Assembly: GCA_964628235.1 (NCBI GenBank)
Contig: CAZVLU010000009.1
Coordinates: 17,473-81,472 of the forward strand
Direction of reading: 5' to 3'
Origin: an uncultured Rhizobium sp.
Lineage (GTDB): Bacteria > Pseudomonadota > Alphaproteobacteria > SMXQ01
DNA: 64,000 nucleotides
Part shown: in pieces, positions 13,329 to 50,639 of the stretch
Layout of the letters: the number at the start of each line of letters is the position of its first letter
How positions within the stretch are numbered: the first letter of the stretch is position 1
Notes under the pieces: model-generated
Told to the model about the DNA's origin: nothing
The model's database searches: none
The model's input: the letters and a program-made list of their open reading frames with translations, nothing else
Translations under genes and position numbers: made by a program

Positions 13329-14507
13329 ATGCACGGAATGGCGCGCTATGCGGTGGTCGGCGGCAAGGTCTTGCTGCCGCAAGGATTCGAGTCCGATGCG
13401 GTCGTCATCGTCGAGGACGGCATCATCGTCGATGTCGCGAGCGAAGCGGGCGCCGCGCGCGCCGTCGACGCGCGCGGGCTCTATGTCATGCCTGGCATCA
13501 TCGATCTGCACGGCGACGCCTTCGAGCGCCAGATCATGCCGCGCCCCGGCGTGCATTTCGATTTGCAGTTGGCGCTTGCCGACACCGACCGCCAGCTCGT
13601 CTCCAACGGCATCACCACGGCCTTTCACGGCGTGACCTATTCCTGGGAGCCGGGCCTGCGCAGCCGCGATACCATCTTGCGGATGATCGCGGCGCTCGAC
13701 GAGGCGCGGCCGCATCTCGCCTGCGACACCAAGCTTCATCTGCGCCAGGAGACCTACAATCTCGACGGCGAAGCCGAGGCGCTCGCCTGGCTCGCCGAGG
13801 GCAAGATCGATCTTCTCGCCTTCAACGACCATACGCCGGACATGCTGAGGAAGCAGTCCGATCCGCAGGAAATGATGACCTATCTGCAGCGCACGCGGCT
13901 GTCGAGCGACGAATTGCGCGCGTTGCTCGCCAAGGTGGCGGCGCGAAAGGACGAAGTCGAAGCCTCGATCAAGCGGCTCGCCGCCGCCGCCGTCGCCGCC
14001 GGCGTGCCGCAATGCTCGCACGACGACCCCTCGCCCGACACGCGGCGCTGGTACCAGGACATCGCCTGCGAGATTTCCGAATTTCCCAAAACCCGCGACA
14101 CCGCGCAGCTCGCCCGCCAGCTCGGCAACCATGTCGTGTTCGGCGCGCCCAACGTGGTGCGCGGCGGCAGCCATCAGAAGGGGGCCGGCGCAGTCGCCGC
14201 CGCCGACATGATCGCCGCCGGCCTCTGCACGGTGCTGACGTCGGACTATTACTATCCGTCGATGTTGCCCGCCGCCTTCCGCCTCGAGCGCGACGGCGTC
14301 TGCGATCTCGCCGCCGCCTGGGCGCTGATCTCGCGCAATCCGGCAGACGCCGCCGGCTTGACCGACCGTGGCCGCCTCGCCGCCGGCCAACGCGCCGACA
14401 TCTTGCTGGTCGAAGCGCCGACAGGCCGCCCGCCCCGCGCCGTCGCCAGCCTGGTCGCCGGCAAGACGGCCCACGCCGGCAAAGGCGCGCCTTCTCCACT
14501 CGGCTGA
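13329..14507 (+). CDS. phnM: Alpha-D-ribose 1-methylphosphonate 5-triphosphate diphosphatase PhnM
   Basis: Amidohydrolase fold (PGIIDLHGDAFE... HDDPS...). PhnM family. Alternative start ATG 13338. Confidence 0.85.
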   Translation: MHGMARYAVVGGKVLLPQGFESDAVVIVEDGIIVDVASEAGAARAVDARGLYVMPGIIDLHGDAFERQIMPRPGVHFDLQLALADTDRQLVSNGITTAFHGVTYSWEPGLRSRDTILRMIAALDEARPHLACDTKLHLRQETYNLDGEAEALAWLAEGKIDLLAFNDHTPDMLRKQSDPQEMMTYLQRTRLSSDELRALLAKVAARKDEVEASIKRLAAAAVAAGVPQCSHDDPSPDTRRWYQDIACEISEFPKTRDTAQLARQLGNHVVFGAPNVVRGGSHQKGAGAVAAADMIAAGLCTVLTSDYYYPSMLPAAFRLERDGVCDLAAAWALISRNPADAAGLTDRGRLAAGQRADILLVEAPTGRPPRAVASLVAGKTAHAGKGAPSPLG

Positions 14508-14637
14508 GCCAACCGTCCTATTATTCTTATTCAACCAGCCACTTGCGTCCTTGCAGAAAACTGCGCGCGCTGCAGGCGGCAGATCCGGCACCTTGGCACC
14601 CCGAGTCCTTAACTGGCTAAGGGAACGATAACCACCG

Positions 14638-15348
14638 TTATGGTTCTATTGGAGGCCACGGAAAGGAGCCTGCAACGTAAAATTGATCCTTCAGGTATCG
14701 GAGGTCCATTTCCCACTGGCGGATAGCTAGTTGATATTTTTGTCGATCGTTCCTTTTAAAGTTGCAACAATTCACGGCTATCACGTTTGCCATTTTTTGC
14801 AGCCTTAATTCGGAACCTGGTTCACCGTATTCATCTCCGCAATATTCCGATACGGCATCCGGTAATGGGTGTCGGAAAAAGTAATTTAAAAAATCTCTCC
14901 GCTCCGTATCGGACATGCCATTAGCGCCCGAACGATAACCAGATATCCATAGTCCACTATGGTCTCTTGTAAAAATGGGGCCTCGCCCGCCGCCCGAAGG
15001 TGCGGGTTCAGAAATAGGCCACGGCCAAGGGGGTTCAGGGCACACAGGTTCTTCGGTTTTAATACCGAGCCAGTTTGCAACAAGGGAAGAAAAATCATCA
15101 AGATGATCGCTGGAGTCGGGATCACTCAATTGCCTCAACTCTAAATATTCCTGCTGCACCTTATTAAGGCTAAGACGAACAAATGCCTTAATCTGGAGAT
15201 CATAAATGCCTCCATCGATGTCGAGATCGCGATTCTCAAACAGCTCGAATAGCAAAGCCTGAATAATTTCCGGACTATTTAATGAGGATGAAAAAAGATC
15301 TTCGATTACATCGTCTTCTAAATTTTCGAGACCCGTAATATCCGCCAT
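14638..15348 (-). CDS. Hypothetical acidic protein in low-GC islet (no recognisable domain)
   Basis: 236-aa ORF filling a ~45% GC islet. Acidic N-terminus (LENLEDDVIEDLF) and Pro/Trp-rich middle (PVCPEPPWPWPISEPAP). Upstream sequence is AT-rich, promoter-like. Confidence 0.5.
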   Translation of the reverse strand: MADITGLENLEDDVIEDLFSSSLNSPEIIQALLFELFENRDLDIDGGIYDLQIKAFVRLSLNKVQQEYLELRQLSDPDSSDHLDDFSSLVANWLGIKTEEPVCPEPPWPWPISEPAPSGGGRGPIFTRDHSGLWISGYRSGANGMSDTERRDFLNYFFRHPLPDAVSEYCGDEYGEPGSELRLQKMANVIAVNCCNFKRNDRQKYQLAIRQWEMDLRYLKDQFYVAGSFPWPPIEP

Positions 15349-15592
15349 GATCTACCCCCGTAATTCACGATGCCCACGGCCACTTATTATATGTCACGCT
15401 CCGTAAGATTTATCGGGATATTATGCTCGCGTAATGAGCACCAGTTGGTGCCTCTGACGCATCGAGAATACAGGCGAAGGAAATGTATCCGAGTGCTTTA
15501 AACCCGTTGATTAAAAGCAGCATCGCTCACGCTAACATCGCCCAATTAGAGCTATTGTCATTTGGCTGCTGCTAAATCCTGGCAACGGTGAT

Positions 15593-16927
15593 GTGGTACC
15601 TTGCCTGCAACATGATCGTCTCGCCGTGAACTTCGCTGCCCGTCTTCAAGCCACGCTCGACCTGATGCAGGAGGTCGATAACGTCGCGCGTCCTGCCGAT
15701 GCTGTCGTCTCGGCGTGGTTTCGCGCCCGCCGCCATATCGGCGACGCCGATCGCGGCCAGATGTCCGACTTGCTCTATGCGCTGCTCCGCCATCACGCCC
15801 GCTTGGGTTGGTGGCTGGCAAAGCACGGCTGCGACGCCACGCCGCGCAGCCGCCTGCTGGCCTGGCTGGCGCTCGGCGAAGGCAAGACGCCGGATCAGCT
15901 TCGCGTCCTGTTCAACGGCGGACAGTCAGCGCCCGCCGCTTTGACGGATGAGGAGCGCGCGCTGCTGGTGAAATTGCAGGGCGGCACCATCGAGCATCCC
16001 GCCATGCCCGACGAGGTGCGCGGCGAATGTCCCGCCTGGGCGGTCGCAGCGTTGCGCAAACGCTTTGGCGATTCGTTTCCGCGCGAGATGGCGGCGCTGC
16101 TGACGACCGCCCCGCTCGATCTGCGCGTCAATCCGCTGAAAACCACGCGCGAGGCGATGCTGCGCGCGTTGCAGAGTCTCGGTCTGCCGGCCGAGGCGAC
16201 GCGCATGGCGCCTTACGGCATCCGCGTGAGCGAGCGGCCTTCGTTGGCCGGCCTGCCGATGTTGAAAGGCGGCGAGGTCGAGATTCAAGACGAAGGCTCG
16301 CAGCTTGTCGCCATGCTGGTCGATGCGAAACCCGGCGAGCGGGTGGTCGATTTCTGCGCCGGCGCCGGCGGCAAGACGCTGGCGATCGCCGTGCAGATGG
16401 AAAACAAAGGCCACGTCATCGCCTGCGACATCCTGGCCAATCGCTTGAAGCGCAGCGCCGAGCGTTTCCGCAATGCCGGGCTGCACAATATCGAGACCAA
16501 GCCGCTCAGCAGCGAAAGGGACCCTTGGGTGAAGCGGCACAAGGGCAATTTCGACCGCGTGCTGGTCGATGCGCCCTGCAGCGGCACCGGCACCTGGCGG
16601 CGCAACCCGGACGCCCGCTGGCGGCCTCTCGGGGCCGGGCTCGAGAGTTTGCTGCCGCTGCAAGCCAGCATTCTCGCCAGCGCCGCGCGCCTCGTGAAGC
16701 CCGGCGGCCGGCTCGTCTATGCCACCTGCTCCATGCTGCCCGAGGAGAACGAGGACCAGGTCGCCGCGTTCGTCGCGGCGCATCCGGACTTTCATGTCGT
16801 GCCGCTGCGGCAAGCCGCGCCGCACCTGACCTCGTCGGCGCATCCCGACTATTTGTCGCTGACGCCGGCGCGGCACAATACCGACGGCTTTTTCGCCGCC
16901 GTCATGCAGCGCGCCGCCAAGCCGTAA
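15593..16927 (+). CDS. RsmB/Sun (NOL1/NOP2) family SAM-dependent rRNA cytosine-C5 methyltransferase
   Basis: SAM-binding region DFCAGAGGKT, catalytic region DAPCSGTGTWRRNPDARW and YATCSMLPEENE. Exact start uncertain (GTG 15593 or ATG 15665). Confidence 0.8.
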   Translation: MVPCLQHDRLAVNFAARLQATLDLMQEVDNVARPADAVVSAWFRARRHIGDADRGQMSDLLYALLRHHARLGWWLAKHGCDATPRSRLLAWLALGEGKTPDQLRVLFNGGQSAPAALTDEERALLVKLQGGTIEHPAMPDEVRGECPAWAVAALRKRFGDSFPREMAALLTTAPLDLRVNPLKTTREAMLRALQSLGLPAEATRMAPYGIRVSERPSLAGLPMLKGGEVEIQDEGSQLVAMLVDAKPGERVVDFCAGAGGKTLAIAVQMENKGHVIACDILANRLKRSAERFRNAGLHNIETKPLSSERDPWVKRHKGNFDRVLVDAPCSGTGTWRRNPDARWRPLGAGLESLLPLQASILASAARLVKPGGRLVYATCSMLPEENEDQVAAFVAAHPDFHVVPLRQAAPHLTSSAHPDYLSLTPARHNTDGFFAAVMQRAAKP

Positions 16928-19048: not shown

Positions 19049-19135
19049 TGGTGCCCCCAGCCGGAATCGAACCAGCACGCCCTCACGGGCAACAGATTTT
19101 GAGTCTGCCGCGTCTACCAGTTCCGCCATAGGGGC
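19049..19135 (-). tRNA. tRNA-Leu (anticodon CAA), type II with long variable arm
   Basis: Reverse complement gives GCCCCTATGGCGGAACTGGTAGACGCGGCAGACTCAAAATCTGTTGCCCGTGAGGGCGTGCTGGTTCGATTCCGGCTGGGGGCACCA. 7-bp acceptor stem, CT-CAA-AA anticodon loop, GGTTCGATTCC T-arm, encoded CCA. Confidence 0.82.
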
Positions 19136-49021: not shown

Positions 49022-49780
49022 TTGAGTAAGCTATATGGGATAGATTTTATCCGCATGCCTTACTTAAAAGCTCCGATCACTGAGGCCGTATTGGATATCC
49101 GCGTGTCGCCACGCGCCGATATAACAGTCGAAGAGCTTGGCCAATTATCTAAGATATTTGGGTCGCGCTATCCCTCGTCTGAGGACGTTCTGCATTTCAC
49201 TGGAACGTACGAAATAGGCTCATCGAAAACTGAACCTGTTACCTCAGAAAAAATAGGCTTCATTTTTAAAAATGCCGAGCAAAGCAAAGTTTTTCAGGCC
49301 CAAAAACTAGGCTTCAGCTTTAACAAATTAGCTCCCTATGAAAGTTGGGAACTTTTTAGTGCCGAAGCTAAAGAGCTTTGGAAGCAATATAAGGCTATCG
49401 CAAAACCTCTAAATATTACCCGTGTAGGCCTGCGATATATCAACAAGCTCAATCTTCCCGTTGGCTTGAAGGACTTTGGAAAATACCTGAAGCAAGCTCC
49501 AGAATTGGCCCCGGGATTGCCTCAGGGGCTATCTAATTTTTTTACTCAATTTCAAATTCCATATGCAGATGTAGAAGCCATGTTGATCATAAACATGACT
49601 ATGGCCCCGCCCCCCGATAAAGAAACGGCATCGGTTATCTTGGATTTAGACGTGTTTCGCGCGCACTCAGTGCCGCAAGGCGATGCTGACTTATGGGCAT
49701 ATTTTGAAAAGCTACGCGCAAAGAAGAATGAGGCTTTTGAAGCCTGCATCACAGACGCCACAAGGGAGCTATTTAAATAA
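49022..49780 (+). CDS. Hypothetical protein, gene 1 of low-GC three-gene cassette (possibly TIGR04255-like; unverified)
   Basis: AT-rich codon usage, 252 aa from TTG 49022 (ATG at 49055 gives MPYLKAPITEAVLDIRV...). Contains RVGLRYINKLNLP. No motif I can assign with confidence. Confidence 0.55.
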   Translation: MSKLYGIDFIRMPYLKAPITEAVLDIRVSPRADITVEELGQLSKIFGSRYPSSEDVLHFTGTYEIGSSKTEPVTSEKIGFIFKNAEQSKVFQAQKLGFSFNKLAPYESWELFSAEAKELWKQYKAIAKPLNITRVGLRYINKLNLPVGLKDFGKYLKQAPELAPGLPQGLSNFFTQFQIPYADVEAMLIINMTMAPPPDKETASVILDLDVFRAHSVPQGDADLWAYFEKLRAKKNEAFEACITDATRELFK

Positions 49781-50115
49781 TGGCAACTGCCTTCTTCGCT
49801 GAACCTTTTACTGCGGATAGTGCTGTCGAGCAAAAGGAGCCGCTCTACATGTCGTTTTCACGAATGCACGAACTGCCTCGCATTCAGCACAAATATTTCA
49901 CCAAGCCTGAGACTGCGTTTGGCGCTGAATCTATGCATGTCAGTATCGTGGCACATGATGCCTTCCGCCGTATTATTCAACTAATTGGACCTTACAACTC
50001 TGTTATATCTCATGACCCATATGAGTATTTCAGTGTTGAATTGCCAACTCGCGAAGCTCGTGCTCGCGTAAATAATATTGGGCGAATTGTCCCTATGCAT
50101 CTAACTGATGATTAA
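49780..50115 (+). CDS. Hypothetical protein, gene 2 of low-GC cassette
   Basis: 111 aa. Start overlaps gene-1 stop (TAATG). No recognisable domain. Confidence 0.45.
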   Translation: MATAFFAEPFTADSAVEQKEPLYMSFSRMHELPRIQHKYFTKPETAFGAESMHVSIVAHDAFRRIIQLIGPYNSVISHDPYEYFSVELPTREARARVNNIGRIVPMHLTDD

Positions 50116-50117
50116 GC

Positions 50118-50639
50118 ATGCCGGCTTGGTGGCAACAGATCGATGGCCCCACTCTTAATCAGGGGGATCTGTTGAGAGGAATTTCTATTCCCATTATCAA
50201 ATCTAATTTTCCGGAAGCTGACGAAAACGGCAATGTACCGTTTGATATTGCGACCACGGACGTTCTCGTCCTTACCCAAAGCTGTGATTTGGTGAATGGT
50301 AAATCTGCAAATGTTCTAGTTGCTGTTGTCCACTCACTAATTGAGTTTGAGAAAACCAACCCGGCTTACGAAAAGGACAAAAGCAAGTGGGGGATGGTTT
50401 CAAAAGGCCGTGTCGAAGGATTGCACTTGTTGCAATCGCCTGAAGCGATGCCAGATGGGCGCAATTATTTACTGGCTGATTTTCGACATATCGTCAGTTT
50501 GCCTTATCAATACACTTCGCAATTTGCAGAAACTGCTGGTCAGAGATGGCGATTAACCTCGCCTTATCTAGAAGCTATGTCTCAAGCCTTTGGGAATCTC
50601 TTTATGCGAGTCGCGATCCCTAATCCAATACGTTTGTGA
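50118..50639 (+). CDS. Hypothetical protein, gene 3 of low-GC cassette
   Basis: 173 aa. ATG 2 nt after gene-2 stop. No recognisable domain. Followed by hairpin CGGGATAAcaaaatTTATCCCG at ~50713-50735. Confidence 0.5.
   Translation: MPAWWQQIDGPTLNQGDLLRGISIPIIKSNFPEADENGNVPFDIATTDVLVLTQSCDLVNGKSANVLVAVVHSLIEFEKTNPAYEKDKSKWGMVSKGRVEGLHLLQSPEAMPDGRNYLLADFRHIVSLPYQYTSQFAETAGQRWRLTSPYLEAMSQAFGNLFMRVAIPNPIRL

What the first reader, a model, noticed from the sequence alone, without database searches (positions are those of the whole stretch)
14508..15592. Second low-GC islet carrying a single acidic hypothetical gene between phnM and the RsmB-like gene
- About 1.1 kb of ~45% GC DNA (by eye) is embedded in ~68% GC flanks.
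- It holds one 236-aa minus-strand ORF (14638..15348) with its own AT-rich upstream region (15349-15592).
- The protein is strongly acidic at the N-terminus (LENLEDDVIEDLFSSS, DLDIDGGIYDLQI) and has a Pro/Trp-rich segment (PVCPEPPWPWPISEPAPSGGGRGP).
- No recognisable catalytic motif. No mobility gene. No flanking repeats found.
- Small acidic orphan proteins in AT-rich islets are sometimes anti-defence or DNA-mimic proteins, or remnants of prophage cargo.
Basis: partly seen in the sequence, partly recalled or inferred. Interest (0 to 1): 0.55.

Follow-up and report, generated by a model that had tools for sequence, protein, structure and literature searches.

The report
Foreign single-gene islet, uncharacterised defence-island protein
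A ~1 kb piece of foreign, low-GC DNA inserted just upstream of the rsmB gene carries one intact gene. Its protein belongs to a widespread but undescribed family that mostly sits beside restriction-modification and other anti-phage systems, so it is a reasonable but unproven candidate for a new immunity-related protein.

Summary
GC is 47% across 14508-15592 (ORF 45%, GC3 0.41) against about 65-70% in the flanks (GC3 0.83-0.87), and the 236-aa minus-strand ORF is at 14638-15348. The closest syntenic relative (L009) has phnM and rsmB about 120 bp apart. The foreign segment is therefore about 14604-15614 and ends about 11 bp before the likely rsmB start. Four independent SRA assemblies reproduce both junctions exactly.

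The protein is not an orphan. Its C-terminal ~130 aa (WPWP...GYxVG...R...RLxKMA...DLxxL...FPWP) occurs in 1,105 cluster representatives. That domain has varied N-termini, including HU, Sel1, Clp_N and Mrr_N. Pfam, NCBIfam, PADLOC, PHROGs and PDB sequence searches found nothing. AlphaFold models are confident (pLDDT 92-93) but have no Foldseek match in PDB or BFVD.

In about 14 of 20 readable neighbourhoods, homologues lie next to type I R-M, BREX or MmeI-type methylases, Dpd, Mrr, DarTG or SLATT genes. None was found in phages, and plasmid matches are rare.

Best reading: a horizontally acquired, standalone member of a new defence-island family, probably a non-catalytic binding protein. Conflict-related context is supported. 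Prophage cargo is not supported, and DNA mimicry is untested. The mechanism is still inferred.

The parts
14508..14603 (.). Native phnM-rsmB spacer retained on the left of the insert. It is not part of the foreign DNA.
   Evidence: Window 14588-14603 (GCACCTTGGCACCCCG) matches L009 5991-6006 at 14/16 positions. GC of 14508-14637 is 0.57.
14604..15614 (.). Foreign low-GC insert of about 1,011 bp, consisting of one gene plus its upstream region. It replaces about 13 bp of the ancestral spacer.
   Evidence: L009 has 6006 and 6020 separated by 13 bp. The window has 14603 and 15615 separated by 1,011 bp. GC is 0.43-0.50. Four SRA assemblies are identical to the window here; L004-L006 cover both junctions.
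14638..15348 (-). Intact 236-aa ORF. It is a member of an undescribed two-domain family.
   Evidence: ORF listed. There are 19 homologues at about 40% identity, aligned along the full length. The AF2 model has pLDDT 92.1.
15064..15348 (-). N-terminal acidic four-helix domain (aa 1-95). It is poorly conserved and is replaced by other domains in distant members.
   Evidence: pI 4.05, net charge -16. It is acidic in all 17 subfamily members with an N-domain long enough to score (pI 4.05-4.97). Helices are 12-20, 26-39, 46-75 and 82-93. A profile of this domain found no relatives.
14959..15063 (-). Linker (aa 96-130) carrying the conserved WPWP motif (aa 108-111, nt 15016-15027).
   Evidence: W108, W110 and P111 are invariant or nearly so. 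pLDDT is 68-86. The linker is a poly-Asp/Glu run in P0011 and P0013.
14641..14958 (-). Conserved C-terminal alpha-helical domain (aa 131-236): SxLxxxGYxVG, ER, LP, YGxPGSxxRLxKMAxxIA, AIxxWExDLxYL, FPWP.
   Evidence: 1,105 cluster representatives at E<=1e-3. Y138, R150 and L162 are invariant in 109 sequences, and R182 and D215 nearly so. The domain-only model has pLDDT 92.6 and pTM 0.86. There is no Foldseek or HMM match.
15349..15614 (-). Upstream non-coding part of the insert. It holds a perfect TATAAT on the minus strand (15386-15391) 37 nt before the ATG, and a GGGGG Shine-Dalgarno-like run (15355-15359).
   Evidence: Read directly from the sequence. The consensus promoter scan found no full -35/-10 pair. 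There is no Rfam match and no similarity to the flanks of homologues.
15626..16927 (+). RsmB-like gene from its probable true start (GTG, MNFAARLQ...). The insert ends about 11 bp upstream.
   Evidence: The start position agrees with ATG in L012 and GTG in L008. The motif ATCGTCTCnCCGTGA is conserved in L009, L010 and the window. PF01189 matches at 2.6e-47.

Best explanation
The islet is a recent horizontal insertion of about 1 kb (about 14604-15614) into the phnM-rsmB spacer. It carries a single intact gene with its own upstream region.

The gene encodes a standalone member of an undescribed protein family whose usual home is the variable, defence-island or mobile part of bacterial chromosomes. 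There it most often sits next to DNA-modification-based immunity: type I R-M, MmeI/BREX-type methylases, Dpd and Mrr-type nucleases.

Inferred mechanism:
- The conserved, usually basic, all-alpha C-terminal domain is a non-catalytic binding module for a conserved ligand, either nucleic acid or a DNA-processing enzyme. It has few invariant polar residues (Y138, R150, R182, D215) and Trp/Pro clasps at both ends.
- The variable N-terminal module gives targeting or regulation. In this subfamily it is an acidic helical domain, sometimes followed by a poly-Asp/Glu linker. It plausibly masks the C-domain or mimics nucleic acid. In other subfamilies it is replaced by HU, Mrr_N, Sel1 or Clp_N.
- The protein would then act as a single-gene immunity factor or as an accessory or modulator of restriction-type systems.

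Shown: foreign origin, insertion site, intact conserved gene, domain architecture, family size, neighbourhood bias, and absence from phages.

Inferred: expression, binding function, role of the acidic domain, and whether it acts for or against defence.
For: Foreign origin and insertion:
- GC and GC3 differ sharply from the flanks.
- L009 has phnM and rsmB about 120 bp apart with no low-GC DNA. None of the 10 closest relatives has a low-GC stretch upstream of rsmB.
- L004-L006, three of four independent SRA assemblies identical to the window, reproduce both junctions.

Real gene:
- Homologues at about 40% identity align end to end, with 23 invariant columns.
- AF2 models have pLDDT 92.1 and 92.6.

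Family:
- 1,105 representatives at E<=1e-3 and 337 at E<=1e-10. The domain is almost always C-terminal, behind varied N-termini.
- Fusions found: Sel1, Clp_N and a weak Mrr_N, and HU.

Neighbourhoods:
- Type I R-M: P0010, P0173, and P0188, where the gene is directly upstream of hsdM and follows two integrases.
- Eco57I/MmeI-type methylase with a SLFN-like helicase: P0022.
- BREX PglX/PglZ in Aeromonas.
- N6_N4 methylase, ResIII and UvrD: P0185.
- Dpd: P0172.
- Mrr_cat: L105 and P0181.
- Large DEAD/Helicase_C protein next to the gene: P0072.
- JetA/JetD fragments, HNH, DUF499 and Fic: P0013.
- DarT/NADAR: P0019.
- SLATT, nucleotidyltransferase, DUF4365, IS91 and integrase: Rhizobium plasmid.
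- radC, DUF2787 and a methylase/helicase/nuclease cluster: Proteus plasmid.
- In total, about 14 of 20 readable contexts.

Repeated horizontal transfer: the gene has lower GC than its surroundings in L088 (-0.125), L106 (-0.120), L108 (-0.094) and L104 (-0.090). The window is the extreme case at -0.197.

Charge pattern: N-domain pI 4.05-4.97 in all 17 scored members of the close subfamily; C-domain pI 7.7-9.8 in 16 of those 18 proteins.
Against: - In this genome the gene is solitary, with no defence gene beside it. The same is true in L088 and L104. The context argument is therefore borrowed from homologues.
- There is no PADLOC hit, no recognisable effector domain and no transmembrane segment. 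A 236-aa all-helical protein has no obvious way to stop a phage alone.
- No conserved partner gene was found.
- Expression is not shown. The consensus promoter scan found nothing.
- In the window protein the C-domain is not basic (pI 5.8), which weakens the masking idea for this member.
- The neighbourhood count is small (20), was not compared with a measured background, and defence islands collect unrelated cargo.
- Small helical domains are hard for Foldseek, so 'no structural relative' is weak evidence of a new fold.
Confidence: 0.45

Rival explanations
1. It is an anti-restriction or anti-defence protein of a mobile element. The acidic N-domain and linker mimic DNA and block type I R-M, BREX or similar enzymes, while the C-domain dimerises or docks it. 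It travels with integrative islands and plasmids and was left behind here.
For: - N-domain net charge is -16 over 95 aa, a charge density that I recall (own knowledge, not computed here) as similar to ArdA.
- Poly-Asp/Glu linkers (net -19 to -20) occur in P0011 and P0013.
- The gene is repeatedly adjacent to methylase-based systems.
- In P0188 it is the first gene after two integrases.
- It is on conjugative plasmids next to radC/DUF2787 in Proteus, and in a long run of small same-strand genes with a ParB-like gene in a Pseudomonas megaplasmid.
- There is no enzymatic motif.
Against: - No phage matches: two tblastn queries of 50,697 records, an IMG/VR pattern scan, PHROGs and BFVD.
- Only 7-8 of 72,556 plasmid records match, whereas known anti-restriction genes are concentrated on such elements (own knowledge).
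- The acidic part is the least conserved part and is swapped for DNA-binding HU or Mrr_N in other members.
- The conserved C-domain is basic in most members.
- There is no ArdA, Ocr or KlcA hit by HMM or by fold.
Confidence: 0.2
2. It is functionally inert here. The gene is a leftover of a once larger island, or a chance illegitimate-recombination insert. It may be silent or on its way to decay, and its main local consequence is to separate rsmB from its former upstream sequence.
For: - There is no partner gene, no mobility gene and no clear target-site duplication.
- No consensus promoter was found.
- The gene is solitary among housekeeping genes.
- The very large GC3 gap (0.41 against about 0.85) implies recent arrival with no amelioration.
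- The insert ends 11 bp from the rsmB start.
Against: - The reading frame is intact along its full length. All family-invariant residues are present and the N-terminus aligns with homologues.
- A perfect TATAAT and a Shine-Dalgarno-like run lie at sensible distances upstream.
- The identical sequence was recovered in four independent sequencing runs.
- Solitary single-gene inserts of the same family recur in unrelated genomes, L088 and L104. This suggests the gene is retained on its own.
Confidence: 0.2
3. It is a nucleoid-associated or gene-regulatory protein carried by foreign DNA, for example a modulator of xenogeneic silencing or a transcription-factor or RNA-polymerase binder. On this reading the C-domain is a DNA- or polymerase-binding module and has no direct role in immunity.
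For: - Three distinct HU-fusion sequences exist (P0165, P0197, P0198). There is also a weak Mrr_N winged-helix fusion.
- The C-domain is basic in most members.
- The gene lies in AT-rich foreign DNA.
- Very few polar residues are conserved, which fits binding rather than catalysis.
Against: - No helix-turn-helix or other DNA-binding family was detected.
- No structural match to nucleoid proteins or sigma or anti-sigma factors was found.
- The neighbourhood bias is towards R-M and defence genes rather than regulated operons.
- The C-domain in the window protein is near neutral.
Confidence: 0.1

Closest known systems
ArdA / Ocr DNA-mimic anti-restriction proteins
   Same: Both are small, strongly acidic in part and lack catalytic motifs. 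Both are genetically linked to type I restriction-modification conflicts and mobile DNA.
   Different: - There is no sequence hit at E<=10 in Pfam or in PDB sequences, and no Foldseek hit in PDB or BFVD.
- Acidity is confined to the variable N-domain, and the conserved domain is basic in most members.
- The family is absent from phages and rare on plasmids.
Accessory or 'restriction-linked' ORFs embedded in or beside type I R-M and BREX loci (for example the DUF4268, DUF4357 and DUF6615 proteins seen next to homologues; PrrC-type add-ons from own knowledge)
   Same: The genomic niche is the same. In P0188 the gene lies directly upstream of hsdM, in P0010 it is tail-to-tail with hsdR, and in P0022 and Aeromonas it follows a MmeI/BREX-type methylase. 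Like these ORFs, its function is unknown or auxiliary.
   Different: It is a different protein family that matches none of those DUFs. It is also found away from any R-M system, including in this window.
Single-gene abortive-infection or defence candidates catalogued in PADLOC
   Same: It is a standalone gene in defence islands, with a conserved module plus a variable module. It is sporadically distributed and horizontally mobile.
   Different: There is no hit to any of the 5,027 PADLOC models. It has no recognisable effector such as a nuclease, a transmembrane segment, or a TIR, SIR2 or HEPN domain.
Small foreign single-gene or few-gene low-GC islets such as the TIGR04255-family islet at 49022-50639 in the same window
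   Same: Both have low GC (0.45-0.48) in a 65% GC chromosome, no mobility genes, and a sporadically distributed hypothetical protein.
   Different: The proteins are unrelated. The islet-2 proteins do not co-occur with the family in any fetched locus.

Membership tests
ArdA (PF07275), Ocr, KlcA/ArdB anti-restriction proteins | Sequence match to the family HMM or to solved members | tested here: not met
   Pfam hmmscan at E<=10 gave only a 0.17 chance hit to PI_PP_I. PDB sequence searches with the protein and with profiles A2 and A3 gave nothing relevant.
ArdA (PF07275), Ocr, KlcA/ArdB anti-restriction proteins | Fold resembling a DNA mimic | tested here: not met
   Foldseek of the full model and of the C-domain model against PDB gave best E of about 2 and TM <=0.30. 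The BFVD best E was about 1.2.
ArdA (PF07275), Ocr, KlcA/ArdB anti-restriction proteins | Negative charge spread over the whole protein, imitating a DNA backbone | tested here: inconclusive
   The whole protein has pI 4.43 and net charge -19, but -16 of that lies in residues 1-95. The C-domain is near neutral here and basic in most homologues.
ArdA (PF07275), Ocr, KlcA/ArdB anti-restriction proteins | Inhibits restriction in vivo or in vitro | not testable with these tools
   Needs plating, transformation or enzyme assays.
Known anti-phage defence systems (PADLOC-DB v2) | Match to a model of a known or candidate defence protein | tested here: not met
   0 families at E<=10.
Defence-island gene (guilt by association) | Homologues are enriched next to known defence genes | tested here: met
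   About 14 of 20 neighbourhoods of at least 4 kb contain R-M, BREX, Dpd, Mrr, DarTG, SLATT, Wadjet-fragment or large helicase genes within 10 kb. No measured background was available, and the window itself lacks such neighbours.
Phage or prophage cargo | Homologues in phage genomes or phage protein families | tested here: not met
   PHROGs gave 0 hits. tblastn of 50,697 phage records with two divergent queries gave 0 hits. An IMG/VR pattern scan gave 0 confirmed hits. No phage genes lie beside the islet.
Integron gene cassette | attC recombination site (about 57-141 bp imperfect palindrome with RYYYAAC...GTTRRRY) after the ORF | tested here: not met
   Only 34 bp of foreign DNA follow the stop codon. 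By my reading of the sequence there are no core sites. The 3' region folds no better than shuffled sequence, z = 0.47.
Insertion sequence, transposon or integrative element | Transposase or integrase gene, terminal inverted repeats, target-site duplication, tRNA target | tested here: not met
   There is no such ORF. No terminal inverted repeats were found, and only a 9/11 direct match. The nearest tRNA, Leu-CAA, is 3.4 kb away at 19049-19135.
New 'WPWP-GYxVG' C-terminal domain family (defined here) | All nearly invariant positions are present: W110, P111, L133, G137, Y138, G141, R150, L162, P163, R182, L183, A208, I209, D215, L216, L219, W231, P232 | tested here: met
   The window protein carries every one of them. 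phmmer gives E-values of 1e-54 to 1e-14 to 150 listed representatives.

The most novel reading that the evidence does not exclude
The conserved WPWP-GYxVG C-terminal domain is a previously undescribed fold that defines a new, widespread class of single-gene immunity or restriction-modulating proteins. On this reading, interchangeable N-terminal modules (acidic nucleic-acid-like domain, HU, Mrr_N, Sel1, Clp_N) direct a common binding domain to a DNA-processing target. The window gene would be a minimal, self-contained, horizontally mobile example.
Probability: 0.3. Interest if true: 0.7.

Novelty: new variant of a known kind. Interest (0 to 1): 0.42.

Why it matters
As a genomic event it is ordinary. 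Small foreign islets carrying a hypothetical gene are common.

The value lies in the protein. It belongs to a family of at least 1,100 sequence clusters that has no Pfam, NCBIfam, PADLOC or PHROGs model. Its predicted structure is confident but matches nothing in PDB or BFVD. Its neighbourhoods are biased towards restriction-modification, BREX and Dpd systems.

If the family proves to be a defence factor or a modulator of restriction, it would add a new module to the bacterial immunity catalogue. This 236-aa standalone version, only about 1 kb with its own upstream region, would be a convenient construct to test.

The insert also sits 11 bp from the start of rsmB. It may therefore have rewired expression of a ribosomal RNA methyltransferase in this lineage.

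Tried and rejected
- Family libraries (Pfam, NCBIfam, PADLOC, PHROGs) and PDB sequence searches, with the single protein and with profiles A2, A3 and A6, gave nothing meaningful.
- Foldseek of the full model against PDB and BFVD, and of the C-domain model against PDB, gave nothing.
- A conserved partner gene was sought. The small genes next to P0010, P0013, P0181 and P0185 are unrelated to each other, so the two-gene-system idea was rejected.
- A profile search with the N-domain alone, looking for other architectures, returned no hits.
- A genome-contig scan for the family with A1 gave 0 confirmed hits. The wider alignments A2 and A3 were too diverse for the pattern tool. The metagenome scan gave only 6 loci.
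- The integron-cassette, IS and tRNA-island explanations for the insertion were rejected.
- An RNA element in the islet was sought. Rfam at E<=1 gave nothing, and there is no intrinsic terminator or unusual fold 3' of the ORF.
- Pseudogene remnants in the 266-bp upstream region were sought by tblastx against all fetched loci, with no hits.
- A link between this islet and the second low-GC islet was tested. Its proteins do not co-occur with the family.
- Literature searches for the WPWP motif and for DUF2787 with RadC returned nothing relevant.
- The Pseudomonas megaplasmid was checked for a plasmid leading-region signature. The result was inconclusive: long runs of unnamed genes.
Full report
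OBSERVATION

The low-GC islet is real.
- 300-bp windows from 14500 to 15699 have GC 0.43-0.52, against 0.63-0.73 on both sides.
- GC of 14508-15592 is 0.472 and of the whole window 0.647.
- The ORF has GC3 0.41, against 0.83-0.87 for phnM, rsmB, phnC and phnD.
- The ORF at 14638..15348 (-) is 236 aa and contains the quoted peptides.

- The upstream gene is a PhnM-subfamily amidohydrolase (NF011987, 472 bits, cutoff 253).
- The downstream gene is an RsmB/F-type methyltransferase (PF01189, 2.6e-47). It scores below the RsmB equivalog cutoffs, so 'RsmB-like' is correct.

The sequence is not an assembly chimera. Four contigs from independent SRA runs are 100% identical to the window; L004-L006 span both junctions.

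INSERTION SITE

The RsmB-like protein was used to fetch relatives. The closest are uncultured Alphaproteobacteria/Rhodospirillaceae MAGs at 82-85% identity. Azospirillum is at about 61%.

Only L009 keeps phnM next to rsmB, separated by about 120 bp of GC-rich spacer. None of the ten closest relatives has a low-GC stretch upstream of rsmB.

Local alignment places window 14588-14603 opposite L009 5991-6006 (14/16 matches). Window 15615 onwards lies opposite L009 6020 onwards. This gives three conclusions:
- The foreign segment is about 14604-15614 (about 1,011 bp) and replaces about 13 bp of ancestral spacer.
- 14508-14603 is native spacer.
- Comparison with L012 (ATG) and L008 (GTG) puts the real rsmB start at GTG 15626. 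The insert therefore ends about 11 bp upstream of it.

No signature of a known insertion mechanism was found.
- There is no transposase or integrase gene and there are no terminal inverted repeats. Only a 9/11 direct match flanks the insert.
- There is no adjacent tRNA.
- There is no attC-like structure. Only 34 foreign bp follow the stop codon, and their fold is no better than shuffled sequence.
- There is no Rfam match.

THE PROTEIN

No match was found in Pfam, NCBIfam, PADLOC, PHROGs or PDB sequences. The protein is nevertheless not an orphan.
- The indexed search found 19 relatives at about 40% identity that align end to end.
- The exhaustive phmmer search found 1,105 cluster representatives at E<=1e-3, and 337 at E<=1e-10. 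These match residues about 100-236.

The conserved unit starts with a WPWP motif. It continues through SxLxxxGYxVG, ER..FL..FF, LP, YGxPGSxxRLxKMAxxIA and AIxxWExDLxYL, and ends in FPWP. In 109 sequences Y138, R150 and L162 are invariant, and R182 and D215 nearly so.

The domain is almost always C-terminal, and the N-termini vary.
- Most are unannotated helical segments.
- Some are Sel1 repeats, Clp_N or a weak Mrr_N.
- Three distinct sequences carry HU.
- No Pfam family covers the domain in any of 109 members.
- Every named member is called 'hypothetical protein'.

AlphaFold2 gives confident models.
- Full length: pLDDT 92.1 and pTM 0.64. It shows a four-helix N-domain (1-95), a linker (96-130) and a helical C-domain (131-236).
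- C-domain alone: pLDDT 92.6 and pTM 0.86.
- Foldseek finds nothing in PDB for either model (best E about 2, TM <=0.30), and nothing in BFVD for the full model.

Charge is split between the domains.
- The N-domain has pI 4.05 and net charge -16 in the window protein. It is acidic in all 17 scored members of the close subfamily (pI 4.05-4.97).
- Two members have poly-Asp/Glu linkers with net charge -19 to -20.
- The C-domain is basic in most members (pI 7.7-9.8) but near neutral here (pI 5.8).

WHERE THE FAMILY LIVES

I could read about 20 neighbourhoods.
- Three contain type I R-M. P0010 lies tail-to-tail with hsdR. P0173 is in an integrase/AbiJ island. P0188 follows two integrases and lies directly upstream of hsdM-hsdS-DUF6615-hsdR.
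- P0022 follows an Eco57I/MmeI-type methylase and a SLFN-like helicase.
- The Aeromonas caviae copy follows BREX PglX/AAA_21/PglZ plus an IS, and precedes ResIII helicases.
- P0185 lies in a tight array after a 1,044-aa N6_N4 methylase, with ResIII, UvrD and an excisionase-like HTH nearby.
- P0172 is 2.3 kb from a Dpd cluster.
- L105 and P0181 are next to Mrr_cat nucleases.
- P0181 and P0072 both flank a DEAD helicase of about 1,200 aa.
- P0013 sits among JetA/JetD fragments, HNH, PDDEXK, DUF499 and Fic genes.
- P0019 is near DarT/NADAR.
- A Rhizobium plasmid copy is next to IS91, an integrase, SLATT with a nucleotidyltransferase, and DUF4365.
- In Proteus plasmids the domain is inside an 850-aa protein beside radC/DUF2787 and a methylase/helicase/GIY-YIG/endonuclease cluster.

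That makes about 14 of 20 neighbourhoods with recognisable conflict genes.

The rest are solitary or uninformative. These are the window itself, L088 (a Geminicoccaceae MAG, among metabolic genes), L104 (beside a TonB receptor), L101, a Pseudomonas megaplasmid and a Rhizobium leguminosarum replicon.

In several high-GC hosts the gene again has lower GC than its surroundings: L088 -0.125, L106 -0.120, L108 -0.094 and L104 -0.090. The window is the extreme case at -0.197. Repeated horizontal arrival as a single gene is therefore a property of the family.

No conserved partner gene exists.

The family is absent from phages. Two divergent tblastn queries against 50,697 records, an IMG/VR pattern scan, PHROGs and BFVD all found nothing. 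It is rare on plasmids, at 7-8 of 72,556 records.

INTERPRETATION

Shown:
- A recent horizontal insertion of one intact, conserved gene with its own upstream DNA.
- Membership of a large undescribed family with a bias towards defence islands.

Inferred:
- The C-domain is a binding module rather than an enzyme. It has few invariant polar residues, and most conservation falls on Gly, Pro, Trp and hydrophobic positions.
- The swappable N-terminal modules target or regulate it.
- In this subfamily the acidic N-domain and linker may mask the usually basic C-domain or imitate nucleic acid.

Whether the protein defends, modulates restriction or counteracts it cannot be decided here. I favour a host-side role, either defence or accessory. 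The family is chromosomal and absent from phages, and the acidic part is the variable part. The anti-restriction reading remains a serious rival (0.2). Inert leftover is also a serious rival (0.2), and a nucleoid or regulatory role gets 0.1.

Expression is plausible but unproven. A perfect TATAAT lies on the minus strand at 15386-15391, 37 nt before the ATG, and a GGGGG run lies 6-11 nt before it. The consensus scan found no full promoter.

COMPARISON WITH KNOWN SYSTEMS

The protein resembles ArdA and Ocr only in being acidic and linked to R-M. It fails their sequence and fold tests. It matches no PADLOC defence model, no phage family and no integron or IS feature.

The nearest description is a restriction-linked or defence-island accessory ORF of a new family.

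VERDICT

As an event it is ordinary. As a protein family it is a worthwhile, testable candidate. Interest 0.42.

Noticed in passing
window 49022-50639: Another low-GC islet (GC 0.45-0.48 over about 1.7 kb) lies between an ABC permease gene and a ribonucleotide-reductase-like gene. It has three co-directional ORFs: a TIGR04255-family protein (252 aa, 7.6e-39) and two unknowns of 111 and 173 aa with no Pfam hit. Their proteins do not co-occur with the family studied here.
   Followed up: partly
window 15593-15628: The mechanical rsmB ORF starts at GTG 15593. Relatives (L012 ATG, L008 GTG) indicate that the real start is GTG 15626 (MNFAARLQ...). The foreign insert ends about 11 bp upstream, so rsmB transcription may now depend on sequence inside the islet.
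   Followed up: partly
L088 10001-10681; L104 9656-10438: The same family occurs as a solitary, lower-GC single-gene insert among housekeeping genes in a Geminicoccaceae MAG and in a metagenome contig beside a TonB receptor. This mirrors the situation in the window.
   Followed up: partly
proteins P0165, P0197, P0198 (JGI metagenomes): In 250-aa proteins a complete HU (PF00216) DNA-binding domain replaces the acidic N-domain in front of the conserved C-domain.
   Followed up: partly
L090 5900-9511 and L109 3095-6652: Two distant family members each sit next to a DEAD/Helicase_C protein of about 1,190-1,200 aa. In L090 it also carries Zn_ribbon_Top1 and DUF559. This is a possible recurrent association and was not tested for homology.
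   Followed up: no
window 15410-15523 (-): A 37-aa hydrophobic mechanical ORF (MLLLINGFKALGYISFACIL...) lies in the non-coding upstream part of the insert, on the same strand as the gene. There is no evidence that it is real.
   Followed up: no
L092 6549-9101 (Proteus mirabilis plasmid pHFK418-NDM): The domain is embedded mid-protein in an 850-aa hypothetical protein with no other Pfam domain. That protein lies beside radC, two DUF2787 genes, an AlpA-type regulator and a methylase/DEAD helicase/GIY-YIG/endonuclease cluster.
   Followed up: partly
window 19049-19135 (-): tRNA-Leu(CAA) is the only tRNA in the window. It is 3.4 kb from the islet and not adjacent to any low-GC DNA.
   Followed up: no
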